The position numbers and the translations under genes are program-made. From IMG/VR virus record IMGVR_UViG_3300025466_000001: a stretch of 64,000 bases of DNA, one strand, 5' to 3'. Under the pieces are notes generated by a model. The model saw nothing but the letters and a program-made list of their open reading frames with translations, had not been told where the DNA came from and ran no database searches. Numbering within the stretch: position 1 is the first letter of the stretch; each line of letters opens with the position of its first letter. Shown in pieces: positions 22,595-51,846 of the stretch. Origin of the DNA: an uncultured virus (IMG/VR IMGVR_UViG_3300025466_000001). Taxonomy: Duplodnaviria; Heunggongvirae; Uroviricota; Caudoviricetes.

Positions 22595-22772
22595 AAAGCA
22601 CGCCGATCTTACCTTGAACTACTCCGAACTCTGCTCGGGCTTGAACTTGGTGATATACGGCGGCTTTTAATCCTGCTTCTCTAGTTTCTTTTAGCTTTAA
22701 CGAAGGAATAAAGAACGACCCCCGAGCAGGGGTCGTAAGCCAAGGGTAGTGCACTCTAATCTTCCTGCTCAT
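22578..22772 (-). CDS. Small conserved phage protein
   Basis: YPW...GSFFIPSL motif; terminal gene of the - operon. Confidence 0.6.
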   Translation of the reverse strand: MSRKIRVHYPWLTTPARGSFFIPSLKLKETREAGLKAAVYHQVQARAEFGVVQGKIGVLFTRVR

Positions 22773-26135: not shown

Positions 26136-27026
26136 TTACTCGTCGTCTGTTTCCCACTCGCCAATAACTTCAGCTAGTTTGCCAGCTTTCTTAGCTGGAA
26201 CAGCGTTTGGTTTAGCGGCTGGTTTACGGACTTCGGGTTCATCAACTTCGTCGCTAGCCGCTTCTACTTTAGCGGTTGGCTTCTTACCTTCGAGAGCTAA
26301 TGGCTCGTCTTTCTTCTTAGCAACACTCATGGTGATGGCTTGCTTAGCTTCGGCAGACTGACCTTTTTTAGCGCAGATTGCATACTCTTCATCGGACAAC
26401 CAACGCATAGGTTGGAAGAACAACTTGGGTACTGCGGCTTTAGTATCGAAACGCATACGAGTAACAAGGGTCTCAGGGTTAATGCTTTGAGCCGCCAAGT
26501 AACGGGCATACGCTTGGAGTGGGCGCTTGTCACCATCCTCTTTACCGAAGATAGAAGTAGCCGCTAGGGTTAATTGCATAACGTCGCCTTCCATATCGTT
26601 AGCCAAAACAACTGCTAAGCGCTGGCTAAAGCGGCAAGCACGTGAATCACCAAGACCTGAGCCTTTGGCATTTTGTGGGCAGTTAGCGCATGATGGTGCT
26701 TGAGGTGTATCAATGCTTGCATCAGGTGTATCGCCGTCAGCAGACCAGCAAGTAGGTGCTGAGTTAGCGCCTTCCTCGTAAGTGCCAGCATAGTATGTAC
26801 GGCTAATCTTTGGGGCAGCTTGAACAATAACTACGTCAAGGTGGCGGTCATCAATAGCCGCAACTTCTTTACCACCAGCGATCAAGCGGAACACACCGCC
26901 CTTAGTTGAGATACGTTTTTGTGAAACTCCTACACCACCAGCCAAACTCTTGGCTAATGAAGATAGTTCTGCGCTCTTAGCAAACGCTGGTAGTTTCGAT
27001 GGGTTAAATGTTGTGAGTTCAGACAT
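26136..27026 (-). CDS. Putative ssDNA-binding/annealing protein
   Basis: CWS..G, CxxC, RAC motifs; acidic tail; replication module. Confidence 0.55.
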   Translation of the reverse strand: MSELTTFNPSKLPAFAKSAELSSLAKSLAGGVGVSQKRISTKGGVFRLIAGGKEVAAIDDRHLDVVIVQAAPKISRTYYAGTYEEGANSAPTCWSADGDTPDASIDTPQAPSCANCPQNAKGSGLGDSRACRFSQRLAVVLANDMEGDVMQLTLAATSIFGKEDGDKRPLQAYARYLAAQSINPETLVTRMRFDTKAAVPKLFFQPMRWLSDEEYAICAKKGQSAEAKQAITMSVAKKKDEPLALEGKKPTAKVEAASDEVDEPEVRKPAAKPNAVPAKKAGKLAEVIGEWETDDE

Positions 27027-27267
27027 TTGTTACTTCTCCTTTTTTAAGAAATTCTAAGAATACTTTTGCTGTTTCTGCGATTGCTATTGGCGCTGTGTCA
27101 GGATTGCTTGCGTTAACTGCCGCACCCAAAGCTTGTACTCGCATTTGGATTTCAATCTGCACGTTGTTCTGCGCATCTTGATAGGCTTGTTGTTGTGCTT
27201 GTTTTAAAGCCGCATTTAAAACTGCTTGCGCTTCTTGTTCGGGTGTTGCTGGCTGAGCTTCGCTCAT
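27019..27267 (-). CDS. Hypothetical protein
   Basis: AGGAG RBS; 82-aa ORF. Confidence 0.65.
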   Translation of the reverse strand: MSEAQPATPEQEAQAVLNAALKQAQQQAYQDAQNNVQIEIQMRVQALGAAVNASNPDTAPIAIAETAKVFLEFLKKGEVTNV

Positions 27268-27686: not shown

Positions 27687-27709
27687 TTGATTTCTCCTTT
27701 CAACGTCTA

Positions 27710-27764: not shown

Positions 27765-29324
27765 TTACTGGTTTATTTCTTCTTTATACAAGCTTAACAG
27801 AATATCGTGTCCTCGTACCCGCTTTTCTAATTGGGCAAACATCTTCTTTTCTATCTCGCTACCTTGCAAGTGTATCACAGTCACTTTAGTGGAATCTTGT
27901 CCGATTCGGTCGGCTCGTGCAATACATTGTAGATACGTTTCTACTGACATAACAGGCCCATAGAACACCACAGTATCAGCCGCAGTAAGCGTTACACCAT
28001 GAGATGCAGACTGAGGTTGGACTACTAGGATACGTGGCTCAGGGAGCGTTTGGAAGCGTTTAAAAATGTCAGTTCTTTTGGACACCGACACATCCCCATG
28101 AATCACTTCGGATGCCACATTGTGTTTCAGTAAGTGGTTATGGATAGTATCAATGCTATGCCTGAATGGGGCAAACACAATCACTTTCCTATTTGTTTCT
28201 TCTAGTACTTCCAGTAGTACCGACAAGCGTGGGGCACAATCAAACTCAACAACTTCATGCTCATCTGTGTATGCCGCACCAGCCGATACTTGTAGCAACT
28301 TTGATACACCAGCCGCCGCATTAACTGCGGTAATAGTTTCACCAGCCGCTTGCATAACCATCTTGTCTTTCAGTAAGCGGTAGTATTTGGTCTGCTGTGG
28401 GGTAAGGGGTATCTCACGTGTTTCTGTAAGTACTGGCGGTAAGTCGGTACATTCTTCTTTGGTGAACCTAATCGCAGGTTGTAATGCGTCAAACACCGCT
28501 TCAGCCGCCCCTTGTTTTGGAACCCATTTGAACTGGGTCAGCTTATTCATAACCTTATCTCGCCATGCAGTAGCAAACTTAGGTACTCCGCTAGGGTTCA
28601 CCAGCTTAGCCAAACCATAGGCATCCACAGGCGATTGAGAAGCTGGTGTGCCTGTCATCATCCATAGAAGGGTATGTGGGGTTAGGATTTTATTTAAGGA
28701 CTTCCAGCGCCTTGTAGATGGGTTCTTGTAGGCATTGGCTTCATCCACAATAACTAGGTCAAACTTGCCATTAGCTACCACCTCATCAGCTACTAGGTTT
28801 AGTCCATCATAGTTAACTACTACAAACTCATAGTTACCTTGTACCATCTCAATACGTCGGGTGGCTTGGCTATGGTGGGCTACGATAACTGAGCGGTGAA
28901 TAATACTCTTGCCTATGCCGTTCATCCAAGCGTCGTGCATGATTGATAGAGGGCATAGGATTAAACAACGACGAACTTTCCCTAACTTCATAAGGTAGTC
29001 AGCCGCCCATAATGCACTAAGGGTTTTCCCTGTACCGGGGTCGTTAAACACAAAGGCTCTTGGATGTAGCGTTAAGAACTCTGCGGTTTCAACTTGATGC
29101 TCGAACGGCTTATACATACCCGGCCAGCTATACTTAGCGCGGATGGGTGAAGGCACATTCTTAACACCTAGATTGCGGAGCACACGCACTTCGTCTAAGC
29201 CCCATTTCACAGCGACTTTAGATACTCCGTTCTGCTCACCTACGATAGCGTGTTTAGGAATGACTGCGTACTTCTCGGGGTTGCGGGTGGTAAACACCAG
29301 CGCTTTATTATCTACGATTTGCAT
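27765..29324 (-). CDS. SNF2-like SF2 helicase
   Basis: DPGTGKT, VIVDEAN, MTGTP, QCIARADRIGQ. Confidence 0.9.
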   Translation of the reverse strand: MQIVDNKALVFTTRNPEKYAVIPKHAIVGEQNGVSKVAVKWGLDEVRVLRNLGVKNVPSPIRAKYSWPGMYKPFEHQVETAEFLTLHPRAFVFNDPGTGKTLSALWAADYLMKLGKVRRCLILCPLSIMHDAWMNGIGKSIIHRSVIVAHHSQATRRIEMVQGNYEFVVVNYDGLNLVADEVVANGKFDLVIVDEANAYKNPSTRRWKSLNKILTPHTLLWMMTGTPASQSPVDAYGLAKLVNPSGVPKFATAWRDKVMNKLTQFKWVPKQGAAEAVFDALQPAIRFTKEECTDLPPVLTETREIPLTPQQTKYYRLLKDKMVMQAAGETITAVNAAAGVSKLLQVSAGAAYTDEHEVVEFDCAPRLSVLLEVLEETNRKVIVFAPFRHSIDTIHNHLLKHNVASEVIHGDVSVSKRTDIFKRFQTLPEPRILVVQPQSASHGVTLTAADTVVFYGPVMSVETYLQCIARADRIGQDSTKVTVIHLQGSEIEKKMFAQLEKRVRGHDILLSLYKEEINQ

Positions 29325-29662
29325 TTGTATTGATCCATTTGTTTATCGTGTTCCACTAAGCCAGCCCAAAATAATCTGTTACCTATTTCCCAAGTTAGAC
29401 TGTCTTGCTCCACTAGTTCGCTTGCGTTTATCCATCCATCACCGTACTTCATAATCCATAGATTTCTACAAGTCTCTATCGGCAAGTCTTTAGCTTCAGT
29501 TACGTATTCGTGCGCATCTACTTTTTTCTTAGGCATTAGCGGTGACCCCCACTTTCTATCTGTCCTATATTCAGAGCCATACTTTTTATTTTCTTCTTCA
29601 ATAGCGTGACCAAAAATACTACGGGCATCAGTCCACCCTTCAGCGTAACGTTCATGCCGCAT
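29312..29662 (-). CDS. Hypothetical protein (paralogue of 29652-29924)
   Basis: W..KYG..W...RL...LVEH motif. Confidence 0.6.
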   Translation of the reverse strand: MRHERYAEGWTDARSIFGHAIEEENKKYGSEYRTDRKWGSPLMPKKKVDAHEYVTEAKDLPIETCRNLWIMKYGDGWINASELVEQDSLTWEIGNRLFWAGLVEHDKQMDQYKCKS

Positions 29663-29924
29663 GATTTTTTAGTCTATATACCAGACCGCTATTCCCATCT
29701 GGGGCGGTGACAATTCTATGATGTTCGACTAACTCTTGATTAGATAAGCGTAGTAGTGCTGCTTTCCAAAAGTCGTCAGTAAACTCCTCGGCTGGAACCC
29801 ATTCGTTACCATACTTAACTTGCCACATAGCCTCAACTACATGGAGTGGGGTATCAAAGGTGTTGTCATAGGGAGCAGTCAGCACCCTACCAAAGTCTTC
29901 GAATAAACTTTTTAGTAGTTCCAT
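29652..29924 (-). CDS. Hypothetical protein (paralogue of 29312-29662)
   Basis: Strong RBS; same motif. Confidence 0.7.
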   Translation of the reverse strand: MELLKSLFEDFGRVLTAPYDNTFDTPLHVVEAMWQVKYGNEWVPAEEFTDDFWKAALLRLSNQELVEHHRIVTAPDGNSGLVYRLKNHAA

Positions 29925-29948
29925 ATTTTCCTTTCGTTGTTGCCAGTA

Positions 29949-30736: not shown

Positions 30737-31408
30737 TTAGTGATTAGGGTGAAATTCACAGGACTTAACCTGACACCATCCACATAGCGGAGTGCTTGTT
30801 GGATTCCATACATTGTTATGGTGGCTGGCTACCAGTTTTGCTACACGTTCTCTGTATAACTGCCAATGGAAATCTTTTTGGTCGGCTTCCATTTTGCTCT
30901 TAACCATGCTCCCCTTAACTACAAACAGTAGAGAAGAATTAACTTGGCGAATGTGTGGGAAGTGTGCGAACACCATGAGGGACATTAAGATTAGCTGATC
31001 TCGGTCAGGGTATTTATCGTTGCCAGTTTTGTAGTCAACTACCCAAGCTTTTAAACCATCGTCATCTATGATTACTAAGTCAGCGATTCCTCTAGCCCAC
31101 ACATCATCGTCACCGAAACCGCAAGGTGTTAAGTCTTCCCTTACACCCATCTCCAACTCAGGAAACTTTCTGCCCTTTATCTTCATCAGGCTTTCCATAA
31201 TGGGTTCCATAAACGCATACTCAGGCGGTATAGGCTTGCCTTCTTTAACATAAAGCTCAGCCGCTTCATGTACTTGCTTACCATACTTGGTGTGAACTGT
31301 TTCTTGGAAAGGGTAGTTCTTTAAAACCTTAACCTCGTGGAACCGCCTAGCGCATCCCTCGTAGTCTTTAAGCCCTGAGTGGCTCCACTTGATTGGTTTA
31401 ACTTCCAT
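30737..31408 (-). CDS. PD-(D/E)XK (RecB/Cas4-like) exonuclease
   Basis: SHS..DY..C, RGIADL, VVDYKTG, CGWC..C. Confidence 0.88.
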   Translation of the reverse strand: MEVKPIKWSHSGLKDYEGCARRFHEVKVLKNYPFQETVHTKYGKQVHEAAELYVKEGKPIPPEYAFMEPIMESLMKIKGRKFPELEMGVREDLTPCGFGDDDVWARGIADLVIIDDDGLKAWVVDYKTGNDKYPDRDQLILMSLMVFAHFPHIRQVNSSLLFVVKGSMVKSKMEADQKDFHWQLYRERVAKLVASHHNNVWNPTSTPLCGWCQVKSCEFHPNH

Positions 31409-33375
31409 TACTTAGCATCTCCGTATCGTTTAGCATAGCTTGATTCTGCGTCAAGTGGGATGCCTTTCATATACTGCGGTTCCATGACCATCTGTGCGTG
31501 TACCCATTTCTCTGCTTCTTCTACTTCTTCATCAGGTACTAGCACTACAACTTCGTCATGCACAGTCAATACACAAGGGTATCTCTCTTGTATCCGTAAC
31601 ATCCCATCAGTCATCACGCAACGAGCAACGGCCTGAACAATGTTTTCTACCAGCTTACCGCCGTATAGTTTTTTATTGTCAGACCCGTAAGACCATTGTG
31701 TTCTGCCTTTCTCGTCTTCTGTACCCTTTAAATCAGGGTAACGCAAAGCCAAACCACTAGGCAATATTATACGCTCTTTTTCAAAAGTTAGACATTTATA
31801 TTCGTAGGTTTTTCCCTTACTTAAACTATGCCCTATCAACGAACTACATAAGTCCCAAAAGGTTACTACTGGGTGCGACTTCTCACGATAGATTTCAATA
31901 ATCTTTTTAGCGGCTAGGCTATGAACTAGAAGCTCTTTGTCTGTGCAAGTGTGTGGTATCTTGTGGAGTAATTCCATGTTGCGTTCCCAACCTAAGAAGT
32001 CAGCTACATCTTGCTCAGTTACACCAAGTTGTTTAGCAAATGCTTTGTCATACATTGTGGGCGGTGCGCCTAGGAATCCAGTAAGAAGTTGCGCAGAGAA
32101 GCTAGCCCAACCCATGCCATAGCCACAACCTAACAACGCTGATTTTGCTGACTGCCTGAGAGTCGGATGTGTTTCTTTAGAGAGGTCGGGTATGCCAAAC
32201 ATCTGCGCCCCAAACGCTGAGTAGGCATCTTGACCCGATGCGAATATATCAAGGAGTGACGTGTAATCAGCGAGATAGGCAAGGACTCTCGGCTCAATTT
32301 GCGAGAGATCGCATACGACGAGCGAGTACCCGTTCGGCGCTTTGATAGATTTACGTAGGAATGACCCCCTCTTGAGGTTTTGTAGATTAAGCCCCGAGCC
32401 CTTGCTCGCCGACCAACGGCCTGTGTGCGCTCCGTAGTAGTTGAGTGGGACAGGAAGTTTACCTCGTTCCGATATATCTGCAAATCTCTGCGCCCTTGTG
32501 CGTTCAAGCGTTGATTTAACTTTGAGCCTTGCTTCGCAAATAAGGGCAACATCGTCGTTACTACTGTTAAGCAACGCTTGGAAGAGGGCATCGTTCTTAG
32601 CGAACGCATAAGCTTCTTTGCCAGTCGTCTTGCTGATCTTACGTGGTGGATTAACTCCAAGTCCTTTAAGTACTTCAGCAAATTTATCGTTACTAGCAAG
32701 CGCCGTTTCATCAACGTCAACTTTTTTAAGAAGCGCTTCCCTCTTTGTCCTCTCATCTTCGATTGCTTCATTAAGCATCTCCTTATCTAACTCAAGTGTG
32801 GGGAACACAAACATCTTGAGCGTCATGTCAATTAAATCTAGTTCACTCTGTGGGAACCCACCTTCTACTTCACCCAGCAAGTTTCTAAATATCTGAGCGC
32901 ACAGTTCTACATCGTGCTCACAGTAGATGGCTAATTCTTTCTCCATCTCATAAGTAATTTCAGACAAGCCGTTAGTGCTATGCACCGCTTGTCCTTTAGG
33001 TGGTAGCCCGTAGTGTTCTGCTAATGTAGCTAGGCTGTTGCCTACTTCTACACCACGAAGGGCACGACCCATACTTAGAGAATCCAGTATATAAGCAGGC
33101 CTAGCGCCGTAGACCCAAGCAAGAATAGAAACATCAAACTGAGCATTATGAGCAAGTACATTTACATTCTCCCAATCAATAGAACTAACCCACGCTGGAA
33201 TATCATCGTGAGTTACCCAAGTTGTTGTATCTTCATTGAGCCACTTATACCCTACACCGAAAGCCTTGAACATCGGACTACGAACATATTCTTCCGTAGT
33301 CATCTTGCTTAGCGTGTAGTCTTTACTGTCCCATCTAGTTTCAAAGTCAACTACCAGCGTTTTTCTTCCGAACAT
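31408..33375 (-). CDS. polA: Family A DNA polymerase with 3'-5' exonuclease
   Basis: DFET, HNAQFD, YCEHD; TGRWS, DLSQIEPR, AKSALLGCGYG, TVHDE. Confidence 0.95.
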   Translation of the reverse strand: MFGRKTLVVDFETRWDSKDYTLSKMTTEEYVRSPMFKAFGVGYKWLNEDTTTWVTHDDIPAWVSSIDWENVNVLAHNAQFDVSILAWVYGARPAYILDSLSMGRALRGVEVGNSLATLAEHYGLPPKGQAVHSTNGLSEITYEMEKELAIYCEHDVELCAQIFRNLLGEVEGGFPQSELDLIDMTLKMFVFPTLELDKEMLNEAIEDERTKREALLKKVDVDETALASNDKFAEVLKGLGVNPPRKISKTTGKEAYAFAKNDALFQALLNSSNDDVALICEARLKVKSTLERTRAQRFADISERGKLPVPLNYYGAHTGRWSASKGSGLNLQNLKRGSFLRKSIKAPNGYSLVVCDLSQIEPRVLAYLADYTSLLDIFASGQDAYSAFGAQMFGIPDLSKETHPTLRQSAKSALLGCGYGMGWASFSAQLLTGFLGAPPTMYDKAFAKQLGVTEQDVADFLGWERNMELLHKIPHTCTDKELLVHSLAAKKIIEIYREKSHPVVTFWDLCSSLIGHSLSKGKTYEYKCLTFEKERIILPSGLALRYPDLKGTEDEKGRTQWSYGSDNKKLYGGKLVENIVQAVARCVMTDGMLRIQERYPCVLTVHDEVVVLVPDEEVEEAEKWVHAQMVMEPQYMKGIPLDAESSYAKRYGDAK

Positions 33376-33544
33376 TTTTTACTTTCTTTTGTTTAGCGTC
33401 AGCTTTGCACTGCTCTATGTATTGCTTGAGAATTGCAAGCACACCTTCTTGAACTAAAAAACCCAAACCTTCTTTATCAAAATGAACCATAGCATCAGCA
33501 GAACCATCTTCGTTTTCTCGTACTACTTCTACTCTGATTTCCAT
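33347..33544 (-). CDS. Hypothetical protein
   Basis: ENEDGSAD motif; coupled ORF. Confidence 0.65.
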   Translation of the reverse strand: MEIRVEVVRENEDGSADAMVHFDKEGLGFLVQEGVLAILKQYIEQCKADAKQKKVKNVRKKNAGS

Positions 33545-33780
33545 TAGTTAATTGTCCTGTCGTTAAGCTGGTCAAGAACTCTATGCCCAATCTCAGCCGC
33601 AGTTTCAGTAAGAAGAATAGGAACTTCCATCTCATCAATGTTAAGACCGCATACCTTGACGCTACTTGTTTCACTATTAGCCACTACCAAAACAATGGAT
33701 ACATTCGGGTCATCAGCGCCCTGTTCAATCAGATCATAGATTGCTTCTAGAGCGCTATCGGGTGTTGTGTGTTCAGTCAT
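33544..33780 (-). CDS. Hypothetical protein
   Basis: Coupled ORF. Confidence 0.65.
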   Translation of the reverse strand: MTEHTTPDSALEAIYDLIEQGADDPNVSIVLVVANSETSSVKVCGLNIDEMEVPILLTETAAEIGHRVLDQLNDRTIN

Positions 33781-34100
33781 TCATCTCTTTCGTTGTGTTG
33801 TTCAATCCATTGAAGTGTGTCTAGTGAATCTTCTACGGACTGAATGTTTTCTTCGTTAACCACCATCACATACCCTCTAGCATCCTCAATCTTCTTGAGT
33901 TCAGCTTCTTGTAGTGCGGTTGTTTTATTTTTACCAGCCTTACATTCTATCGCAATGAAGCGCCCTTTGTAACAAGCTATGATGTCGGGAATACCCGAAC
34001 GACCAAACCCACCCATCACAGGATAGAAATAATAAGCGCCAAACTTTTTAAGGATTTTTGTTACGGCTTCTTTTACCTTTTTCTCGGGTGTTTGTGCCAT
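33777..34100 (-). CDS. VRR-NUC / Holliday-junction resolvase-like nuclease
   Basis: PEKKVK, GIPDII..YKGRFIAIECKAG..TALQ. Confidence 0.85.
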   Translation of the reverse strand: MAQTPEKKVKEAVTKILKKFGAYYFYPVMGGFGRSGIPDIIACYKGRFIAIECKAGKNKTTALQEAELKKIEDARGYVMVVNEENIQSVEDSLDTLQWIEQHNERDE

Positions 34101-34494
34101 TTGTTAACTCCTTTGCTTTTTCCAAGTGTAGTGCTACGTGTTTACCATGATCTGCATACGTTTCTTCAAAGACTTTGTTAAGTATGTTTGCCGCTATTAC
34201 ATCTTTGGTATGTTGCATTGATTCTGCAAGTCGTTTTGCAATACCACCAAAGTCAGGCAAGTTGCTAAAGAACTCATCAAACTCTTCCTCTTTCAAGTAA
34301 CGCATACCATCAGGGGTTTCTACTAAAATGCCATGCTCTTTAAGCCAGCGTAGCTTTCGTCTTTCTTCTACCGCTTCTTGCAGTTCCATTCTTACTCTTG
34401 CATCTCGTTGTTGCATTACCGCCAACTCAGCTCTCAGCTTCTCAATCTCAGCCCCCTTCGGGTCAATCGCTTTCAGTATCTCTTTCGAGTCCAT
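34048..34494 (-). CDS. Coiled-coil protein containing a major-capsid-like segment
   Basis: AAGGAG RBS; residues 87-109 align with capsid residues 108-130. Confidence 0.7.
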   Translation of the reverse strand: MDSKEILKAIDPKGAEIEKLRAELAVMQQRDARVRMELQEAVEERRKLRWLKEHGILVETPDGMRYLKEEEFDEFFSNLPDFGGIAKRLAESMQHTKDVIAANILNKVFEETYADHGKHVALHLEKAKELTNGTNTREKGKRSRNKNP

Positions 34495-34669
34495 CTACTT
34501 CTCCTTGTTGTTCTAAAGTTAGGTCTGCCATTGGCAGTTCGATTGTTGTTATCCTAAAGCCACAGTCGTCTATGCAAACCCGTCGTCTACGCACCCAGTC
34601 AGGATGTTGTGTCGCCGTCCGAGTTTGCGTAGTCTTTAACTTGGCTCCGCACTTTGGGCAGTTTCTCAT
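34463..34669 (-). CDS. NrdR/Ogr-like zinc-ribbon protein (start MRNCPKCG)
   Basis: CPKCG...RRRRVC...CGFRITTIE. Confidence 0.75.
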   Translation of the reverse strand: MRNCPKCGAKLKTTQTRTATQHPDWVRRRRVCIDDCGFRITTIELPMADLTLEQQGEVDGLERDTESD

Positions 34670-37718: not shown

Positions 37719-38591
37719 TTAGAAATCGAACTTGGATAGGATTGCGTCAACATCTTTCTTAACTGCTTGGCGAGTATCGAGGTCTTTGCGTAAGTCATCA
37801 ACCTCTAAGCCATTGACTGCTTCATGTAGTTTGATGCGTGCTTCTTCTAAGTCTTTGTCGCCTGTGATGTTGAGGTCTTTAGCTAGTGAGCATAACTCGT
37901 TGGCAGTATCTAACAGACTGGCATGGAACATACGGGGTTGTGCCTTGTGTCCTGTGTAGTCCACAGTTAAGCGGTCAGACATACGCTTGAGGTGATCTTT
38001 GAGTCTTGTCTTGATGTCACCCATAGCGTTCTCGATACGCTCATCTGCTAGCTTTGCTAACTTGTTTTGTAACTCTGCTTGTGCGTCATTACCCACATCA
38101 ACTCGGAAGTCACCCGAGGTAGGCACAGGCATATAGTTAACTCGGAAGTCAAAGCGATGCTTGATGTCATCAGGTGTTGGATACTCGTTGCGGTTAAACA
38201 TATCACCAAGAGCCATAGCCTGTGCAGTAATCAAGGTTGGGTAAGTCGTTACGAAATCATCTACCAACGCATTGAACTTATCCTCGAACTCTTGCATACG
38301 CTGGTTGAACTCCATGAACTTAGCGGTAGTCAGTAAGCGTAAGCCCGAGTCAGACCAAGGCAAGGTCACATCATAGAGATAGGTGCGGATAGCACCAACG
38401 CATTGGTTGATTGTTTCTAACTCAGGGCGACCAGCTAATAAGTTCTTATTAACTCGAGCCGCACCCTTACTGCCAGCTTGTTTAGTTGCCAACACCTCGT
38501 CGGTAGTTGACTTGTCTAGTTTGCGTGCTGTCCATTGGCGAACATTTACCTCTACCAACATAGCGCAAGTATCAATGTTAAAGCGTGTCAT
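37719..38591 (-). CDS. DUF3150-like helical protein accompanying the AAA/vWA pair
   Basis: TLPWSDSGLRLL, LGDMFNRNEYP, PTSGDFRVD; synteny. Confidence 0.6.
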   Translation of the reverse strand: MTRFNIDTCAMLVEVNVRQWTARKLDKSTTDEVLATKQAGSKGAARVNKNLLAGRPELETINQCVGAIRTYLYDVTLPWSDSGLRLLTTAKFMEFNQRMQEFEDKFNALVDDFVTTYPTLITAQAMALGDMFNRNEYPTPDDIKHRFDFRVNYMPVPTSGDFRVDVGNDAQAELQNKLAKLADERIENAMGDIKTRLKDHLKRMSDRLTVDYTGHKAQPRMFHASLLDTANELCSLAKDLNITGDKDLEEARIKLHEAVNGLEVDDLRKDLDTRQAVKKDVDAILSKFDF

Positions 38592-38610
38592 AGTAATTCT
38601 CCTTTGTTGT

Positions 38611-42076: not shown

Positions 42077-42153
42077 GGTAATTCCTTTCGTTGTTTGATA
42101 TTTGTATTTAAGTTGTTGTAGATATACTGCGTTCTTTGCGTGAGTGTAGTAAC

Positions 42154-45637: not shown

Positions 45638-46057
45638 TTACTTGGCGATCTTTGTCAAAAATGCTTTGCGTTGTGCAACTGTGAGAGCTTTGAATTGTGT
45701 AAGTAACTTAGCAACTGGGTCAGGCTTCTTGGCTGCCTTTGGTTTCGTGGAGGTTTTCTCCACTTGGCTTGGCATATAGTATTTGAGCATAGCCCTTGCA
45801 CATTCACTCGCATCTGTACCACCATTCTTTTTAGACTCAAAGCCTAGCGAGCCTGTGTAAGAACCTTTGGTAATCTCAATCGTGGCTACCTTCTTCTTGA
45901 TACTGATGAGCCTTGCTATGTTGCTCCGTACTTCTAGCTGTGCCTCGACCTTCATAGCGTTAAATACAGGTGCAAACTTCTGCATGGCATCACCGAGATT
46001 AAAACCTGATTCAATGTGTTGCTCTACTGCATTGAGATAGTTAGTAACTTGTTTCAT
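45638..46057 (-). CDS. First early gene, basic protein
   Basis: AAGGAG RBS; extended -10 TGGTATAAT at 46128-46120. Confidence 0.7.
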   Translation of the reverse strand: MKQVTNYLNAVEQHIESGFNLGDAMQKFAPVFNAMKVEAQLEVRSNIARLISIKKKVATIEITKGSYTGSLGFESKKNGGTDASECARAMLKYYMPSQVEKTSTKPKAAKKPDPVAKLLTQFKALTVAQRKAFLTKIAK

Positions 46058-46349
46058 GGTATTGCTCCTTCGTTTGTGTAGTTAATTAAGTATGTGCCGT
46101 TACTACCAAGCACAACTCTATTATACCATATGGCTACTATCCGTAGTAGCTTTGAGCCATTCCTTTGACCCCACCCATCCCCCATCCCCCCAAGTTTCGA
46201 CCATGCCCCGCTCGGCACTAGATCATTGTTTCGCAGGCGCAAACCAAAAAATGTCAAAATTTTGTAAAAAAATCCAAGGGTCTATGTCAAATCTTAGACA
46301 AAAACATTATAAAAATTCTTAGCAAATTTCGGACAAGACCTCCCAGAAA

Positions 46350-46800
46350 AAACGCTGTAACCTTATGATTACAAAAAATAAAGCCGTGCAAACATATGAC
46401 ATGAGGTAAAAGTTATGTAAAAAGGATAAACCTACATAAGATTGTTATAAAAAAGTTTCCCAGTAGTGCCTATAGGTATCAAAACAACAAAACAATTCCA
46501 ACCTATAGGTATAAAAAAGTTTCCCGAACGGGAAGAATTGATAAAAAAGTGTGCAAAAGTAAAAAAATATTCCCGAACGGGAAAGTTTGTAAGAAAAAGT
46601 AATGACTCATAAATGAGTCCATATAGGGGTTAAAGCTTTATTTATGAGTCAACCAAAGAGCGCATAAACTCAACGACGTATACAAAATGTCAACAAATCT
46701 GCGCATATCCCCCAAACATGTCTACAAAACTGCAATTACTATACATACCAAAAACTGTCTAGTAACAATGTTGCACTGCACCATAAAACAAATTAAAATG
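46350..46800. repeat. Non-coding array of paired operator-like palindromes
   Basis: CCTATAGGTAT x2, TTCCCGAACGGGAA x2, TGACTCATAAAT x2, GT(A/C)TACAAAA x2, others. Confidence 0.7.
46768..46799 (+). promoter_or_regulatory. Sigma70 promoter with PhaR-like operator over the -35
   Basis: TTGCAC-17-TAAAAT; ATGTTGCACTGCACCAT palindrome. Confidence 0.6.
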
Positions 46801-46847: not shown

Positions 46848-46982
46848 ATGAACGAACTATTCAAAGAGTGGGACAAAGCGTATCAACAAGTACAGAACGT
46901 ACTAGAGGCGGTAAAGCAAGGGAATGAGTTTTGGTTAAACCACTACATCTCTTCTGTTAAAGAACTTTTCAAAACCAAATAA
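46848..46982 (+). CDS. 44-aa amphipathic helical protein, possibly phasin-like (not in the ORF track)
   Basis: AAAGGA RBS; MNELFKEWDKAYQQVQNVLEAVKQGNEFWLNHYISSVKELFKTK. Confidence 0.65.
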   Translation: MNELFKEWDKAYQQVQNVLEAVKQGNEFWLNHYISSVKELFKTK

Positions 46983-47014
46983 AAAAAAACCCCCGGGCGT
47001 TTTAAGTCCGGGGG
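46981..47014 (-). terminator. Intrinsic terminator (U-tract on - strand)
   Basis: CCCCCGG..CCGGGGG stem followed by T9 on -. Confidence 0.8.
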
Positions 47015-47066
47015 CACAACTCACGTAACCGATGGCACAACGAAAGGAGAAGTAAAACCACCGGTA
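46982..47066 (-). ncRNA. Candidate ~85-nt anti-RBS small RNA
   Basis: Promoter TTTACA-17-TACAAT, 5' hairpin with anti-SD loop, terminator. Confidence 0.65.
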
Positions 47067-47072
47067 AGAAGA

Positions 47073-47150
47073 ATTGTAAAGTTTTGGCTGCGGATTGTAA
47101 AGTTAAGCCCCGATAATTGTAAAAAAAGAAAATGTGTAATAAAATACACA
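47073..47150. promoter_or_regulatory. Divergent overlapping promoters built from 3x ATTGTAAA
   Basis: - strand TTTACA-17/18-TACAAT twice; + strand TTGTAA-17-TAAAAT; TGTGTA-N6-TACACA over the -10. Confidence 0.6.
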
Positions 47151-47188: not shown

Positions 47189-47812
47189 TTGATCTTAGAT
47201 CATTTAGTTTCAGCTGCAGCCGCTGACTTCGCTCCGGAAACACTACCGGACGGGGATTTGTTCGTCCCTGTAAAAGACCTATCTGTAAAAGAAACCATAG
47301 ATGCGCAGGTAAACACTGCCGACTGGCTCAAATCTATTACCGAAGATGACGACGAGGTACTAGACCGCGCCCAAGAACAACGTGTAGGCGAAGCATTCGG
47401 TGCGCTAATCACGCAAAGCCCTGATACAAAAGAAAGATTCCTAGAGCTTGAGCTCCCAGAAGAAGTAAAGTCTGCCGTTTCCATGGTGACTGCCTATCAA
47501 TGGAAGTTTGTAGAGCAAGCACAAGAGCTACGAAGCATGAGCGTAGCCAAGATTGTTAAAGAAACCGACCACCCAGATGCAAGAATACGCTTAAAGGCGT
47601 TGGAATTGTTGGGAAAAGTCACAGAAGTTGCCCTGTTTACGGACAGAGTTGAAGTTAAGAAGACTGAACTAAGTGATGAAGAGTTGGAAAAACAAATTAA
47701 AAAGAAACTTGAGAAGTACATGGGCGTGGTTGAGGTAACTGAGATTAAAGAAGAAGACATTGAGGACGTGGGAATAGTGAAAGTCATCAAAGCTGAGCCC
47801 CGCGACGAATGA
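47189..47812 (+). CDS. terS: Putative terminase small subunit (TTG start)
   Basis: Directly upstream of terL; RLKALELLGK motif. Confidence 0.65.
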   Translation: MILDHLVSAAAADFAPETLPDGDLFVPVKDLSVKETIDAQVNTADWLKSITEDDDEVLDRAQEQRVGEAFGALITQSPDTKERFLELELPEEVKSAVSMVTAYQWKFVEQAQELRSMSVAKIVKETDHPDARIRLKALELLGKVTEVALFTDRVEVKKTELSDEELEKQIKKKLEKYMGVVEVTEIKEEDIEDVGIVKVIKAEPRDE

Positions 47813-49329
47813 AAACAGAAAGTCTAAGCCCAGAAGAAGCAATGGCTGCCAGAATGGCACTAAAAGATATGACGACTGTGGAAAAAGCGGCTTTCCTAGA
47901 AGAATTAAACGAAAAAGAACGCCGTGCCCAGCTAAAAAAAGCACAAGACGACCCAATTGAGTTTGCCAAGTACGTGTATCCGGGTTTCAAAGTGGGGCCC
48001 CACCACCGCAAGCTAGCTAAAATCTTCGAGGACGTCATTGCGGGGAAGAAAAAGCGCGTAATCATAAACATTGCACCACGTATGGGCAAATCAGAATTTT
48101 CGTCCTACCTCTTTCCGGCATACTTCCTAGGTAAATACCCTGACAAAAAGATTATTATGGCGACCCACACTGCTGGCTTGTCAGAAGACTTTGGTCGTAG
48201 GGTACGAAACCTAATTGATGGAGAAGATTACCATGAAGTATTTCCCGGAACCGTTGTTGCTGATGATCAAAAAGCCGCTGGTAAGTGGAGTACTGGTGCC
48301 GGCGGCCAGTATTATGCTGTGGGTGTCGGGGGTGCTCTTGCCGGACGAGGCGCTGACCTTTTTGTTATTGACGACCCTCACTCTGAGCAAGATATAAAAG
48401 CAAACAGCCGAGCCACGTTTGATAATGCGTGGTCTTGGTTTCAGACTGGCCCGTTGCAGCGTTTGATGCCGGGTGGTGCGATTATTGTCATTATGACAAG
48501 GTGGTCGCTTGTTGATTTGACTGGCCGGTTGGTGAACTTCACCATACAAAATCCCGAAGCAGAACCATGGGAGGTAGTAGAGCTGCCAGCCATCATGCCA
48601 AACGGGAAAAGTCTGTGGCCTGAGCAGTGGCCTCTAGAACAGTTAGAAGCTAAAAGACTTCAGATGGACCCACGGTACTGGAACGCCCAGTACATGCAGA
48701 ACCCCACCGGGGATACAAGCGCCCTGATAAAACGAAGCGACTGGAAAATCTGGGAACACGAAGACCCACCGACAGTCGAGTACGTCATCCAGTCTTGGGA
48801 TACGGCGTTTGAAACAAAAACCACATCTGACTATTCCGCATGCACAACATGGGGGGTTTGGTACAACGAAGAAGATAACAATTCACCCAATCTAATTTTG
48901 TTAGATGCGTTCAAAGACCGGATGGCGTTCCCAGAATTAAAGGCTGTTGCACTGAAGCATTATCAAGAATGGAAACCAGATGCGTGTATCATTGAGAAAA
49001 AAGCGTCGGGTGGCCCGTTAATACAAGAGCTGCGCAGAATGGGGATTCCGATTCAAGAGTTTACACCTAGCCGTGGCAACGATAAAATAGCTAGACTTAA
49101 TGCGGTTTCTGACTTATTTGCGTCCGGCCGTGTTTGGATACCGGATAGGCGTTGGGCTAAAGACGTTGTGGAAGAAGTAGCAGCATTCCCTGTAGGCGAG
49201 CACGATGACTATGTGGATACGACAACGCAAGCATTACTGCGCTATAGACAGGGCGGATTTGTTAATTTAAATACGGACGAGCAAGACGACTTGACGTACA
49301 AGTATAGAAGAAGAGCAGCATACTACTAA
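47809..49329 (+). CDS. terL: Terminase large subunit
   Basis: APRMGKS, IDDP, MTRW, WDTA, HDDYVD. Confidence 0.95.
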   Translation: MKTESLSPEEAMAARMALKDMTTVEKAAFLEELNEKERRAQLKKAQDDPIEFAKYVYPGFKVGPHHRKLAKIFEDVIAGKKKRVIINIAPRMGKSEFSSYLFPAYFLGKYPDKKIIMATHTAGLSEDFGRRVRNLIDGEDYHEVFPGTVVADDQKAAGKWSTGAGGQYYAVGVGGALAGRGADLFVIDDPHSEQDIKANSRATFDNAWSWFQTGPLQRLMPGGAIIVIMTRWSLVDLTGRLVNFTIQNPEAEPWEVVELPAIMPNGKSLWPEQWPLEQLEAKRLQMDPRYWNAQYMQNPTGDTSALIKRSDWKIWEHEDPPTVEYVIQSWDTAFETKTTSDYSACTTWGVWYNEEDNNSPNLILLDAFKDRMAFPELKAVALKHYQEWKPDACIIEKKASGGPLIQELRRMGIPIQEFTPSRGNDKIARLNAVSDLFASGRVWIPDRRWAKDVVEEVAAFPVGEHDDYVDTTTQALLRYRQGGFVNLNTDEQDDLTYKYRRRAAYY

Positions 49330-49338
49330 GGAATAAAG

Positions 49339-51846
49339 ATGGCAATTGATAAGGGTTTATACCAAGCACCAAAGGGTATTCAAGAACTGGCAGACAACAT
49401 GGAGCCAGATATTACTGTTGAAGTTGAAGACCCAGAAGCCGTGCATATCAATGCCGATGGCTTTGAGTTAGATATTGAAAAGATGGACGAAGAAGATGGT
49501 TCGCCAGAATTTAACGCCAACTTAGCTGAAGACATGGATGAAGGGGAACTGACTTCCCTAGCAGCAGAATTAGCACACGATATTGATAACGATTTAAACT
49601 CCCGCAAAGATTGGGAGAAGATGTATAAAGACGGTATTACTCTGCTTGGCTTGAAGTTTGAAGAAAGAGTAGAACCATGGGACGGCGCTTGTGGCGTGTT
49701 CCATCCGATGATTACCGAAGCCGTGGTGCGTTTTCAAGCTGAAGCAATCATGGAGACTTTTCCTGCAGCTGGTCCAGTACGTACCCAGATTATCGGTAAA
49801 GAGACTCGTGACAAAGTAGAAGCAGCGCAACGTGTTGAGCAAGATATGAACTATCAGCTCACAGAAAAAATGCCTGAGTTCCGTAACGAGCATGAAAGAA
49901 TGCTGTGGAATTTACCATCTGCCGGTTCCGCATTTAAGAAAGTCTACTACGATCCAAACTTAGGTCGTCAAGTTTCTATCTTTATTCCAGCAGAAGACAT
50001 CATGCTCCCATACGGAGCTAGTGAAATTGCGTCATGCCATCGTGTAACACATCGCATGCGCAAGACAAAGAATGACCTGATTAAACTTCAGAACGCTGGG
50101 TTCTACCGTGACATTGAGTTAGGTGAGCCAGAAAAGTTTCAAACAGAAATTCAGGAGAAGAAAGACAAAGAGACCGGGTTTACGGCAACGTATGATGACC
50201 GCTTTGAGTTATATGAAGCGCACGTTGACCTTGATTTACCCGGATATGAAGACTTAGGGGATGACGGCGAACCAACAGGTATTGCGCTCCCGTACGTCGT
50301 AACGATGATTCGAGGTACCAATGAAATTCTTGCAATTCGTAGAAACTGGAAAGAGGAAGATCCGCTCTGCCTTAAACGCCAGCATTTTGTTCATTATCAA
50401 TATATCCCCGGATATGGAGCTTATGGTTTTGGTCTTTTCCATCTTATTGGTGGTTTTGCTAAGTCCGCAACTTCTATCCTCAGACAGCTGGTTGATGCGG
50501 GTACTCTTTCCAATTTACCGGGTGGCTTAAAGTCACGTGGTCTTCGCATTAAAGGCGACGACACGCCAATCGCACCGGGTGAGTTTAGAGACGTTGATGT
50601 AGGCTCTGGCACCATTAGAGACAACATCCTCCCGTTGCCATACAAAGAACCATCAGCAGTTTTAGCTGGCTTGATGGATAAAATCATTGAAGAAGGTCGT
50701 CGTTTTGCGGCTACTTCCGATATGCAAATCTCTGATATGAGTGCTAACGCACCTGTTGGAACAACGCTTGCAATTCTGGAAAGAACCTTGAAGGTGATGT
50801 CTGCCGTTCAAGCTCGAGTACACTACGCCTTAAGACAAGAACTCAAGCTGCTTGCCGGTATTATTAGAGATTACACTGATGATGACTACAACTACCAGCC
50901 AGAAAGCGGCGACATCTACGTCAAAAAGTCCGACTACAGTCATGTGGACGTGTTACCTGTATCCGACCCTAATGCGGCCACCTTATCTCAGAGAGTGGTC
51001 CAGTACCAAGCTGTTATCCAGTTGGCGCAGAGTGCACCCCAGATTTATAACCTTCCCGAGTTGCACAGGCAGATGCTTGACGTTCTTGGAATTAAAAACG
51101 CCGACAAATTGGTGCCTTTGGAGGATGACCAAAAGCCAAAAGACCCAGTTACAGAAAATATGAACGTGCTAAAGGGCACTCCACTCAAGGCATTTATTTT
51201 CCAAGACCACGAAGCGCATATTGCTGTTCATCAATCTATGATGACAGACCCAATCGTTCAACAGCTTATCGGCCAAAACCCACAAGCAAACATGATTGTT
51301 CAAGCGCTTCAGTCTCACCTTGCTGAACACGTTGGCTTTGCATACCGTCAAAAAATCGAAGAGCGTTTGGGTATTGCCCTACCTTCTCCAGATGATGAGA
51401 TGCCAGAAGCAATGGAAAAAGAAGTTAGCCGTCTCATGGCTCAAGCTGCTCCACAAGTATTGGCACAAAGCAAAGCGCTCATGGCTCAACAACAAGCTCA
51501 GCAAAACGCACAAGACCCTGTACTACAGATGCAAATGCAAGAACTCCAGCTCAAGAAGCAGGATGTCGACGCTAAAGCACAGAAAGTTCAGAGCGATGCA
51601 CAAGCTAAAGCACAAGAGTTGCAGCTCAAACAAATGGAATACCAACTCAAGAAACTTGAAGTTGAAGCCAAGATTAAGCAAGATGGTATGAAAGCTGGCG
51701 CTGAAGTAGCGGTTAAGAAAGCTCAAATTACCGAAGGCTTGGCTCGCTCCAAGGAAGCAGGTATGCGTGTTAAACAAGACGGCTTAGCATTAGGTGCCGA
51801 CATAGCAATGAAACGATTACAGTCCAAAAAACCTAAAGGAGAATAA
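49339..51846 (+). CDS. Portal protein
   Basis: 835 aa after terL; GSAFKKVYYD; Q-rich coiled-coil barrel. Confidence 0.85.
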   Translation: MAIDKGLYQAPKGIQELADNMEPDITVEVEDPEAVHINADGFELDIEKMDEEDGSPEFNANLAEDMDEGELTSLAAELAHDIDNDLNSRKDWEKMYKDGITLLGLKFEERVEPWDGACGVFHPMITEAVVRFQAEAIMETFPAAGPVRTQIIGKETRDKVEAAQRVEQDMNYQLTEKMPEFRNEHERMLWNLPSAGSAFKKVYYDPNLGRQVSIFIPAEDIMLPYGASEIASCHRVTHRMRKTKNDLIKLQNAGFYRDIELGEPEKFQTEIQEKKDKETGFTATYDDRFELYEAHVDLDLPGYEDLGDDGEPTGIALPYVVTMIRGTNEILAIRRNWKEEDPLCLKRQHFVHYQYIPGYGAYGFGLFHLIGGFAKSATSILRQLVDAGTLSNLPGGLKSRGLRIKGDDTPIAPGEFRDVDVGSGTIRDNILPLPYKEPSAVLAGLMDKIIEEGRRFAATSDMQISDMSANAPVGTTLAILERTLKVMSAVQARVHYALRQELKLLAGIIRDYTDDDYNYQPESGDIYVKKSDYSHVDVLPVSDPNAATLSQRVVQYQAVIQLAQSAPQIYNLPELHRQMLDVLGIKNADKLVPLEDDQKPKDPVTENMNVLKGTPLKAFIFQDHEAHIAVHQSMMTDPIVQQLIGQNPQANMIVQALQSHLAEHVGFAYRQKIEERLGIALPSPDDEMPEAMEKEVSRLMAQAAPQVLAQSKALMAQQQAQQNAQDPVLQMQMQELQLKKQDVDAKAQKVQSDAQAKAQELQLKQMEYQLKKLEVEAKIKQDGMKAGAEVAVKKAQITEGLARSKEAGMRVKQDGLALGADIAMKRLQSKKPKGE

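What the first reader, a model, noticed from the sequence alone, without database searches (positions are those of the whole stretch)
46982..47101. Candidate phage sRNA whose loop is antisense to the ribosome-binding sites of several of its own early/middle genes
Seen: a - strand promoter TTTACA(47101-47096)-17-TACAAT(47078-47073) would start an RNA at about 47066. It reads ACCGGUGG-[uuuuacuucuccuuucguugug]-CCAUCGGU, an 8-bp stem that is fully paired only on the - strand (G-U), then a GC-rich terminator with U9. The 22-nt loop is complementary to leaders of - strand genes: 13/13 at 27030-27042 (SSB-like), 12/12 at 29929-29940 and 42083-42094, 11/11 at the leader of 34494, 10/10 at the leader of 27686, and one-bulge matches at 33784-33797 and before 38591 and 36751. 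The matches extend beyond the SD into ACAACG and AAGTA. The + strand copy has no start codon after it, so it is not itself an RBS. Inference: a multi-target translational silencer, transcribed divergently from the late promoter, that shuts down the early/replication arm, a superinfecting relative, or host mRNAs.
Basis: partly seen in the sequence, partly recalled or inferred. Interest (0 to 1): 0.88.

Follow-up and report, generated by a model that had tools for sequence, protein, structure and literature searches.

The report
Conserved phage small RNA with anti-ribosome-site loop
An uncultured freshwater phage and dozens of its relatives carry a short non-coding RNA gene whose exposed loop is the mirror image of the ribosome-landing sites of the phage's own early genes, so it probably switches those genes off, though its expression has not been seen.

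Summary
On the minus strand at 47101-46981 lie a sigma-70-type promoter, an 8-9 bp hairpin with a 22-nt CU-rich loop, and a GC-rich terminator with nine U.

Related IMG/VR phage contigs show this is a real RNA gene. A covariance model built without the window finds one copy in 63 of 79 related loci (E<=1). In hairpin 1 all 10 pairs show compensatory changes. 93.1% of cells pair on the minus strand against 72.2% on the plus strand (93 G.U cells against 2 A.C). A -10 box sits 5-8 nt before the stem in all 41 distinct variants. In one lineage the whole gene is inverted but keeps its own promoter and terminator.

The loop is complementary over 9-13 nt to seven early-arm ribosome-binding sites and to no late leader over 9 nt or more. 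This exceeds flank-shuffled controls (0 of 300) and real-leader controls (0 of 52), and holds less strongly in five complete relatives. The energy-based signal is more modest, because early genes also have stronger Shine-Dalgarno sites.

No expression data exist and the host is unknown. Best reading: a trans-acting, multi-target anti-Shine-Dalgarno sRNA that damps early-gene translation. It matches no Rfam family.

The parts
47094..47123 (-). Upstream tandem promoter-like site TTTACA-18-TACAAT. It belongs to three TTTACAAT repeats, each of which can serve as a -35 or a -10 box.
   Evidence: 10 of 12 consensus matches; repeat copies
47073..47101 (-). Promoter TTTACA-17-TACAAT. The -10 box ends 7 nt before the hairpin.
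   Evidence: A -10-like hexamer (TATACT, TATAAT, TACAAT or TACTAT) stands at the same place in all 41 distinct relatives' variants.
46981..47066 (-). Predicted sRNA of about 85 nt. The 5' end is inferred from the -10 box and the 3' end lies in the U-run.
   Evidence: fold; covariance-model hit at window 46985-47065, 33.8 bits, E 7.7e-5, from a model built without the window
47028..47065 (-). 5' hairpin: an 8-9 bp stem with one G.U pair enclosing a 22-nt loop.
   Evidence: covariation; strand asymmetry
47036..47057 (-). Loop UUUUACUUCUCCUUUCGUUGUG. It carries the anti-Shine-Dalgarno word CUCCUUU and flanks matching the phage's early leaders.
46981..47015 (-). Intrinsic terminator: 8-bp GC-rich stem, 11-nt loop, U9.
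   Evidence: Helix 2 is kept with 7 of 9 pairs showing changes on both sides.
27030..27042 (-). Predicted target: RBS of the 296-aa gene 26136-27026, 13/13 match.
   Evidence: -17.8 kcal/mol
27692..27701 (-). Predicted target: RBS of the 136-aa gene starting at 27686 (Pam3 gp33-like DUF7307), 10/10 match.
   Evidence: -18.3
29929..29940 (-). Predicted target: RBS of the 90-aa gene 29652-29924, 12/12 match.
   Evidence: -18.8
33787..33797 (-). Predicted target: leader of the 78-aa gene 33544-33780, 11/11 match.
   Evidence: -18.4
34496..34506 (-). Predicted target: RBS of the 148-aa gene 34048-34494, 11/11 match. It gives the best duplex, covering -18 to +1 relative to the start codon.
   Evidence: -22.5
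38597..38605 (-). Predicted target: RBS of the 290-aa gene 37719-38591, 9/9 match, longer if one bulge is allowed.
   Evidence: -17.5
42083..42094 (-). Predicted target, 12/12 match, 6 nt before the ATG at 42076. It is a leader only if that ATG is the real start.
   Evidence: -18.8. The alternative start at 42157 overlaps the upstream gene's stop.
47117..47145 (+). Divergent plus-strand promoter-like site TTGTAA-17-TAAAAT ahead of the packaging and structural operon.
   Evidence: Plus-strand -10 boxes stand at the matching place in relatives.
46848..46982 (+). Convergent 44-aa ORF whose stop codon lies in the A-run of the terminator. Similar C-terminal peptides are encoded in several relatives.
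   Evidence: read by eye from the printed upstream sequences; not aligned formally

Best explanation
An independently transcribed sRNA of about 85 nt is made from the minus strand by host RNA polymerase. It starts about 7 nt after a sigma-70-type -10 box and ends at its own intrinsic terminator. Its 5' hairpin displays a CU-rich loop (CUCCUU plus flanks) that imitates the 3' end of 16S rRNA. The flanks extend this into the A/C-rich sequence that precedes the SD, and the A-rich spacer that follows it, in the phage's own early and middle genes. The RNA pairs in trans with the ribosome-binding sites of a subset of these mRNAs, covering roughly -20 to +1. This blocks 30S binding and possibly opens the mRNA to decay. 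As the stable RNA accumulates, it damps or shuts off the early/replication arm, while late leaders, which match poorly, escape. What is shown: the gene anatomy, its conservation, the strand, the accessible seed and the non-random complementarity. What is inferred: transcription, pairing in vivo, the sign of the effect and its timing.
For: (1) Gene anatomy: promoter, hairpin and terminator.
(2) Family: the same plan (-10 box, hairpin, terminator) appears upstream of the homologous gene in relatives down to about 55% protein identity. There are 41 distinct variants with 26 distinct arm pairs. A CM built from 18 sequences that exclude the window hits 63 of 79 related loci at E<=1 and 53 at E<=0.01. 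It finds one syntenic copy per phage and no second copy in the window.
(3) Covariation: 94.7% of 836 cells paired; score 0.693 against 0.199 for shuffles (0 of 500 as high) and 0.06-0.11 for slid partners; 10 of 10 pairs of helix 1 change on both sides.
(4) Strand: helix 1 pairs in 93.1% of cells on the minus strand and 72.2% on the plus strand, with 93 G.U cells against 2 A.C. The minus-strand hairpin is the more stable in 37 of 41 variants.
(5) In L042/L043 the gene is inverted relative to the neighbouring operon, yet keeps its -10 box, CUCCUU-loop hairpin, second CUCCUU and terminator.
(6) A CU-rich anti-SD word is kept even where the architecture changes. Most B-type RNAs carry 2-3 such words. 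A 74%-TerL relative has two in a single-stranded linker.
(7) Targets in the window: seven early-arm RBS matches of 9-13 nt, and no late leader with 9 nt or more. None of 300 flank shuffles and none of 52 real-leader pseudo-loops reach the observed score.
(8) Replication in five complete relatives: flank shuffles reaching the observed value number 4, 0, 9, 0 and 0 of 300. In all six genomes the loop scores far higher on early than on late leaders (top-five sum 42-59 against 34-38), and only one late leader in all reaches 10 nt.
(9) Loop type and leader word change together between clades. CGAAAGGA occurs in early leaders of A-type genomes (3:0, 3:1, 2:0 against CGAAGGA), and CGAAGGA occurs 5:0 in B-type G002. 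A third clade with CAACUCAAGGAGA in its RNA has a 13/13 early leader. Own-type loops score higher than foreign loops on A-clade leaders (top-five sum 52-59 against 35-48).
(10) Of 56 exact IMG/VR matches to the B-type loop word, 44 are sRNA genes and 7 are RBS leaders followed by ORFs.
Against: No transcript has been seen, and no RNA data set holding this phage was available.
By energy the excess over composition-matched anti-SD controls is modest in the window: 11 early leaders at or below -15 kcal/mol against 6.0 +/- 2.7 in shuffles, with 13 of 200 shuffles as high. For the mean of the best five, 4 of 200 shuffles are as low.
An 11-nt core alone already separates early from late leaders (p=3e-6). 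Part of the early bias is therefore simply stronger SDs.
In G002, G005 and G006, 3 real leaders used as pseudo-loops score as well as the true loop (3 of 54, 55 and 61). The loop is one member of a shared leader motif rather than unique.
G004 shows no preference for its own loop type.
Predicted best targets are not orthologous between clades. The first early gene carries the motif in the A clade but an unrelated leader in the B clade.
In the window itself that first gene's leader is of the other type (CACAAACGAAGGAG) and pairs only with bulges (-14.4 kcal/mol).
Loops with G-to-A (CUCCUUCAUUUGGG) gave no clear matching change in leaders.
The alignment used for the pair counts was fitted to the model's structure, and many sequences are close relatives, so the counts are not independent events.
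Confidence: 0.45

Rival explanations
1. Host-directed or general silencer. The same sRNA acts mainly on host mRNAs, through their SD sequences or through specific host leaders that match CGUUUGGG/CGUUGUG. This would help host takeover, in the manner of the CU-rich 'toxic small RNAs' of Betaproteobacteria.
For: The invariant part of the family is the anti-SD word itself. Its structural setting and flanks vary between clades. Most B-type members carry 2-3 anti-SD words. Cellular double-hairpin sRNAs with CU-rich loops complementary to RBSs attenuate growth when overexpressed (PMC5688073, passages read).
Against: The flanks match phage early leaders beyond shuffled controls in six genomes, and the loop type changes together with the phage's own leader word. 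An unselective silencer would also hit the phage's late SDs. The host is unknown, so no host target could be tested: MAG titles for TerL relatives disagree.
Confidence: 0.2
2. Cis role only. The unit serves as a transcriptional insulator or roadblock between convergent and divergent operons, or as an antisense RNA to plus-strand read-through from the 44-aa ORF into the packaging operon. The loop sequence would then have no trans function.
For: The terminator abuts the stop codon of a convergent plus-strand ORF, and the sRNA promoter lies back-to-back with a plus-strand promoter. The plus strand has no U-run after the stem, so read-through is plausible.
Against: The loop is the most conserved part, while the stems change freely. 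A purely cis element has no need for an anti-SD word. In L042/L043 the unit is inverted and sits after a tRNA gene and upstream of the small ORF, so it is not antisense to that read-through, yet all its parts are kept. In L017-type phages the small ORF is absent.
Confidence: 0.1
3. Protein sponge or decoy. The pyrimidine-rich single-stranded words bind and titrate an RNA-binding protein, such as ribosomal protein S1, Hfq, or a factor that recognises the 16S 3' end, rather than pairing with mRNAs.
For: Most B-type members have multiple CU/U-rich unpaired words plus a terminator U-tail. The word resembles the 16S 3' end (my own knowledge; no call).
Against: A protein ligand does not explain the clade-specific agreement between loop flanks and early leaders.
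Confidence: 0.1
4. The functional strand is the plus strand. The element would be a relic or decoy ribosome-binding site, a translational-operator hairpin, or a GGA-motif (CsrA-type) site inside a long plus-strand mRNA.
For: Read on the plus strand, the loop looks like a model early leader (AAAGGAGAAGUAAAA), and B-type members carry up to three GGA words.
Against: There are 93 G.U cells against 2 A.C, and pairing is 93.1% against 72.2%. The U-run and the -10 box are on the minus strand in all variants. No conserved start codon or ORF follows the element. The inverted copy in L042 carries the promoter and terminator for the CU sense.
Confidence: 0.03

Closest known systems
CU-rich anti-SD sRNAs of bacteria, such as Rfam RF02278 'Betaproteobacteria toxic small RNA' (ncS03/05/27/62 of Burkholderia cenocepacia); by recall also S. 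aureus RNAIII/RsaE and Listeria LhrC
   Same: Short terminator-ended RNAs with CU-rich words in hairpin loops or linkers that are the reverse complement of RBSs. Most predicted interactions fall on RBSs of many mRNAs (PMC5688073, passages).
   Different: Not a member: RF02278 scores 16.4 bits against a gathering score of 50. This RNA is phage-encoded, has one seed hairpin plus the terminator in the window, and its seed flanks match the phage's own early leaders. The RNAIII, RsaE and LhrC comparison is recalled, not tested.
Phage antisense RNAs that mask an RBS: P1/P7 c4 RNA (also P22 sar and lambda OOP, by recall)
   Same: A phage RNA whose loop sequences pair around a ribosome-binding site to block translation (PMC12197685, passage).
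   Different: By recall, not read here: c4 acts within its own immunity operon on the mRNA leading to ant, and sar and OOP are cis-antisense. Here the RNA has its own promoter and terminator. Its candidate sites are many and spread over about 15 kb of the early arm.
T4 RegB endoribonuclease and RegA translational repressor
   Same: Phage functions that inactivate many early mRNAs at their translation-initiation regions. RegB cuts GGAG in early SDs and spares most middle and all late mRNAs, which eases the early-to-late transition (PMC3014915, passages).
   Different: Those are proteins. Here the proposed specificity comes from RNA-RNA pairing. There is no sequence relation and no experimental support yet.

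Membership tests
Stand-alone bacterial-type sRNA gene | Own promoter at a fixed distance from the RNA's 5' structure | tested here: met
   (window); a -10-like hexamer 5-8 nt before the stem in 41 of 41 distinct variants
Stand-alone bacterial-type sRNA gene | Intrinsic terminator on the same strand | tested here: met
   helix 2 with 96.5% of cells paired and a U-run in the family alignment
Stand-alone bacterial-type sRNA gene | Secondary structure kept by compensatory changes, with strand-specific G.U pairs | tested here: met
   Caveat: the alignment was fitted to the model.
Stand-alone bacterial-type sRNA gene | A transcript of the predicted size and strand | not testable with these tools
   No RNA data set holding the phage was available.
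Trans-acting RBS-occluding sRNA | Conserved, unpaired seed | tested here: met
   The loop is unpaired in the MFE fold. CUCCUUCGUUUGG is nearly invariant in the B-type alignment.
Trans-acting RBS-occluding sRNA | Complementarity to target RBSs beyond chance and beyond a generic anti-SD word | tested here: met
   Exact-match tests: 0 of 300 shuffles in the window; 0-9 of 300 in five relatives. The energy test is weaker: 13 of 200 and 4 of 200.
Trans-acting RBS-occluding sRNA | Seed and targets change together | tested here: inconclusive
   For: (three clade-specific words). Against or silent: G004, the window's first early gene, the G-to-A loops, and no orthologous targets. Few independent events.
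Trans-acting RBS-occluding sRNA | Regulatory effect on target translation | not testable with these tools
   Needs reporters, toeprinting or infection experiments.
Rfam RF02278 (Betaproteobacteria toxic small RNA) and every other Rfam 15 family | Covariance-model score at or above the gathering threshold | tested here: not met
   0 hits at gathering in the whole window. The best sub-threshold sRNA hits are 16-19 bits against thresholds of 39-70.
Cis-antisense phage RNAs (sar/OOP type) | The target is the transcript of the opposite strand at the same locus | tested here: not met
   No gene start lies opposite the element. The unit is inverted and relocated in L042/L043 with all parts kept.
CsrB/RsmZ-type protein-sponge RNAs | GGA motifs exposed on the transcribed strand | tested here: not met
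   GGA is on the strand that lacks a promoter, a terminator and G.U support.

The most novel reading that the evidence does not exclude
A family of uncultured freshwater phages uses one small RNA as an RNA-based counterpart of T4 RegA/RegB. It would be a 'pan-early-leader' antisense RNA whose 16S-like loop, extended by clade-specific flanks, co-evolves with a leader word shared by many early genes. It would time the shut-off of the early/replication programme while sparing late mRNAs. Because the word is shared within a clade, the same RNA could also silence the early genes of a superinfecting relative.
Probability: 0.35. Interest if true: 0.8.

Novelty: new variant of a known kind. Interest (0 to 1): 0.7.

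Why it matters
Few trans-acting regulatory RNAs are known from phages, and most of those described come from temperate phages or prophages (review PMC12197685, passages only). None of my three literature searches listed a phage sRNA that targets the RBSs of many of the phage's own early genes. If the reading is right, temporal control that T4 achieves with proteins is achieved here by a single 85-nt RNA. The family also offers a natural series of seed and leader variants for testing how an anti-SD seed gains selectivity. In addition it defines a candidate new RNA family, with more than 60 members found here, that current RNA-family libraries lack.

Tried and rejected
Searches that gave nothing:
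- Near and distant DNA searches of the region against 50,697 phage records found no match.
- The window's own assembly is not held. The nearest record, G001, is a 27.7-kb fragment without the region.
- Rfam gave nothing at gathering and only far-sub-threshold hits at E<=10.
- Sequencing runs: no RNA holder listed. All 24 holders are DNA runs labelled freshwater metagenome.
- Earlier findings of this scan: none for this genome.

Checks that were inconclusive or negative:
- Three GenBank relatives by TerL (46-51% identity), namely Synechococcus phage MinM2, phage 023Pt_psg01 and phage DSL-LC04, have no CM hit better than E 0.4 within 4 kb of TerL. Only those 9.4-9.5-kb stretches were searched, not the whole genomes.
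- Host inference from genome contigs gave four MAG contigs titled Elusimicrobia, Chitinophagales, Patulibacter and Lysinibacter. These disagree, so I treated them as binning noise.
- Looking for one conserved orthologous target failed.
- Looking for a leader change that matches the G-to-A loop variant was inconclusive, because too little early-arm sequence is held.
- MAFFT alone misaligned the right arm of the hairpin across loop-length classes. I therefore counted pairs on the CM-fitted alignment and did a separate arm-by-arm count.

Considered and rejected: a plus-strand RBS relic or CsrA-type decoy, a replication-primer or origin role, and a pac site. Nothing specific supports any of these, and none explains the RNA-type covariation and the conserved anti-SD word.

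Full report
**Setting.** The window is a phage genome of about 64 kb.
- A minus-strand early/replication arm runs from about 46.1 kb down to 22.8 kb. It holds a DNA polymerase (31408-33375), a helicase (27765-29324) and a primase-like protein (22756-25623).
- A plus-strand packaging and structural arm starts at about 47.1 kb with an unnamed 207-226-aa gene, followed by TerL (47809-49329) and the portal gene (49339-51846).
- The finding lies in the gap between the two arms.
- No close relative is in GenBank phages. The best TerL identity is 50%.

- The minus strand carries TTTACA-17-TACAAT at 47101-47073 and a second, overlapping TTTACA-18-TACAAT at 47123-47094. These are made by three TTTACAAT repeats.
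- Seven nucleotides after the -10 box comes ACCGGUGG, then a 22-nt loop, then CCAUCGGU (47065-47028). A 12-nt linker follows, then a GC-rich stem with U9 (47015-46981).
- The 85-nt RNA folds at -29.9 kcal/mol, z -2.59. On the plus strand the stem has an A.C mismatch.
- All listed matches of the loop to minus-strand leaders are exact.
- No ORF follows the plus-strand copy.

**It is a conserved RNA gene.** The neighbouring 226-aa ORF retrieved 79 related IMG/VR loci with 46-100% identity.
- In most of them the same plan is visible in the upstream sequence: an A-run and GC stem, a linker, arm / CC(C)AAACGAAGGAG.AAAA / arm, then the reverse complement of a -10 box.
- There are 41 distinct variants. 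Every one has a hairpin around the CU-rich word, with 26 distinct arm pairs. Every one also has a TATACT, TATAAT, TACAAT or TACTAT box 5-8 nt before the stem, often with TGn.
- RNAalifold on 18 B-type sequences gives a 10-bp hairpin, a single-stranded linker and the terminator. Seven pairs carry compensatory changes.
- A covariance model from those 18, which do not include the window, finds the window's copy at 33.8 bits, E 7.7e-5.
- Across the model hits 63 of the 79 loci at E<=1 and 53 at E<=0.01. The hit is always at the syntenic place, and there is no second copy in the window or in five complete genomes. About ten of the 16 misses have little or no upstream sequence; the rest belong to the most distant clade.
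- On the model-fitted alignment, 94.7% of 836 cells pair. The covariation score is 0.693, against 0.199 for shuffles (0 of 500 as high) and 0.06-0.11 for slid partners. All 10 pairs of helix 1 change on both sides. Fitting to the model and relatedness of the sequences inflate such counts, but the arm-by-arm list shows the same thing without a model.

**The strand is the minus strand.**
- Helix 1 pairs in 93.1% of cells as given and in 72.2% as its complement, with 93 G.U cells against 2 A.C.
- The minus-sense hairpin is the more stable in 37 of 41 variants.
- The U-run and the -10 box lie on that strand throughout.
- In L042/L043 the whole unit is inverted relative to the packaging operon. It sits just after a tRNA-Pro gene and still has its own TATACT box, CUCCUU-loop hairpin, a second CUCCUUCG and a terminator. 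This argues against a plus-strand element and against a purely cis-antisense role.

**What is invariant is the anti-SD word.**
- A-type loops read UUUUACUUCUCCUUUCGUUGUG. B-type loops read UUUU.CUCCUUCGUUUGGG.
- Most B-type RNAs add UCCUUGU after the hairpin and CAUCCUCCUU before the terminator.
- Distant relatives place UCUCCUUG just 3' of a different hairpin.
- A contig with 74% TerL identity has UUCUCCUUUC and UUCUCCUCCUU in a single-stranded linker.
- An exact-word scan of IMG/VR for the B-type loop gave 56 places: 44 sRNA genes (including new stem variants), 7 ordinary RBS leaders and 5 others.

**Targets.** In the window the loop's plus sense matches early-arm leaders over 13, 12, 12, 11, 11, 10 and 9 nt. 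No late leader matches over 9 nt or more.
- Controls: 0 of 300 flank shuffles (GGAG held fixed) and 0 of 52 real leaders used as pseudo-loops reach the observed top-five sum of 56.
- I fetched five complete relatives and repeated the test with crude gene calls of my own. Flank shuffles reaching the observed value numbered 4, 0, 9, 0 and 0 of 300. Real-leader pseudo-loops reaching it numbered 3/54, 0/61, 0/49, 3/55 and 3/61. Late leaders scored far lower in every genome; only one late leader in all six reached 10 nt.
- By duplex energy, early leaders bind the loop better than late ones (mean -13.1 against -9.1 kcal/mol, Mann-Whitney p 6e-7).
- An 11-nt core alone also separates them (p 3e-6), and the shuffle control is only borderline: 13 of 200 for the count at or below -15 kcal/mol, 4 of 200 for the best five.
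- Part of the early bias is therefore stronger SDs. The extension into the flanks is real but moderate.

**Co-change of seed and leaders.** Evidence for:
- CGAAAGGA occurs in early leaders of three A-type genomes (3:0, 3:1, 2:0 against CGAAGGA). It never occurs on the plus strand of any of the six genomes.
- B-type G002 has CGAAGGA 5:0.
- A-type loops score 52-59 on A-clade leaders, where B-type loops score 35-48.
- The distant clade with CAACUCAAGGAGA in its RNA has a 13/13 early leader.

Evidence against, or silent:
- G004 shows no preference for its own loop type.
- In the window the two leader words are 1:1, and its first early gene has the B-type word.
- Orthologues of that gene in the B clade have an unrelated leader.
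- The best targets are not orthologous across clades.
- The G-to-A loop variant gave no clear answer.
- The independent events are few.

**Mechanism.** The most economical reading is a trans-acting sRNA that masks the RBSs of a subset of early and middle genes.
- It would spare late leaders, which pair poorly.
- The duplexes cover about -20 to +1, which is where 30S subunits bind.
- The promoter is of the host sigma-70 type, like the early promoter TGgTATAAT at 46128-46120. The RNA would therefore be made from the start of infection and could act as an accumulating timer.
- None of this is shown experimentally.
- Rivals are a host-directed general silencer, a cis-only insulator or antisense unit, a protein sponge, and a plus-strand element. 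Each is weighed in its own section.

**Comparison with what is known.**
- The closest in kind are bacterial CU-rich anti-SD sRNAs such as RF02278 (PMC5688073, passages). Membership fails at 16.4 bits against 50.
- P1/P7 c4 RNA also pairs around an RBS through loop sequences (PMC12197685, passage). By recall it acts within its own immunity operon.
- In function the nearest parallel is T4 RegB/RegA, which inactivate many early mRNAs at their initiation regions and spare late ones (PMC3014915, passages).
- Three full-text searches listed no phage sRNA of this kind. I read the listings and the passages named, not whole papers or supplements.

**Verdict.** It is best filed as a new variant of a known kind, with fairly high interest, pending evidence of expression and function.

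Noticed in passing
window 46521-46619 (- strand): Three terminator-like hairpins with T-runs lie within 100 nt. Two share the same stem, TTCCCGTTCGGGAA. Read on the plus strand, the word TATAAAAAAGTTTCCC recurs. These could be further small minus-strand units or repeated plus-strand promoter or operator words.
   Followed up: no
window 46285-46300: The palindrome TGTCTAAGATTTGACA lies in the early control region, against 0.23 expected at two mismatches or fewer. Near-identical TGTCAAAGATTTGACA words lie in the same region of many relatives. This looks like an operator.
   Followed up: partly
window 46120-46128 (- strand): The extended -10 box TGgTATAAT lies about 60 nt upstream of the first early gene (ATG at 46057). 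It is preceded by the hairpin GCTACTACGGATAGTAGC and a G-rich tract GGGGGGATGGGGGATGGGTGGGG at about 46167-46192. Related GGTGGGGG...CCCCCACC structured segments abut the sRNA terminator in L017-type relatives.
   Followed up: no
L006-L009, L014, L015, 50-130 nt left of the sRNA terminator: A conserved segment that looks structured: GGGCAGTTAAGCCGACGCAGAAGGATG...TTTTTTCGGCTTTCC...AAATTCTTGCCC. It may be a second non-coding element, and it is absent from the window.
   Followed up: no
L042 3168-3243: A tRNA-Pro(UGG) gene lies directly upstream of the inverted sRNA gene in this relative. The window itself has no tRNA.
   Followed up: partly
window 15683-22594 (+): A 2303-aa ORF ends the structural arm. 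Its only match is a PHROG family of unknown function, over residues 1625-2293.
   Followed up: no
window early against late leaders: Early-arm leaders are A/C-rich upstream of long SDs (ACAAC..AAGGAGAA). Late leaders are U/A-rich with TAAGGAGC/T. This is a clear two-class RBS style within one phage.
   Followed up: partly
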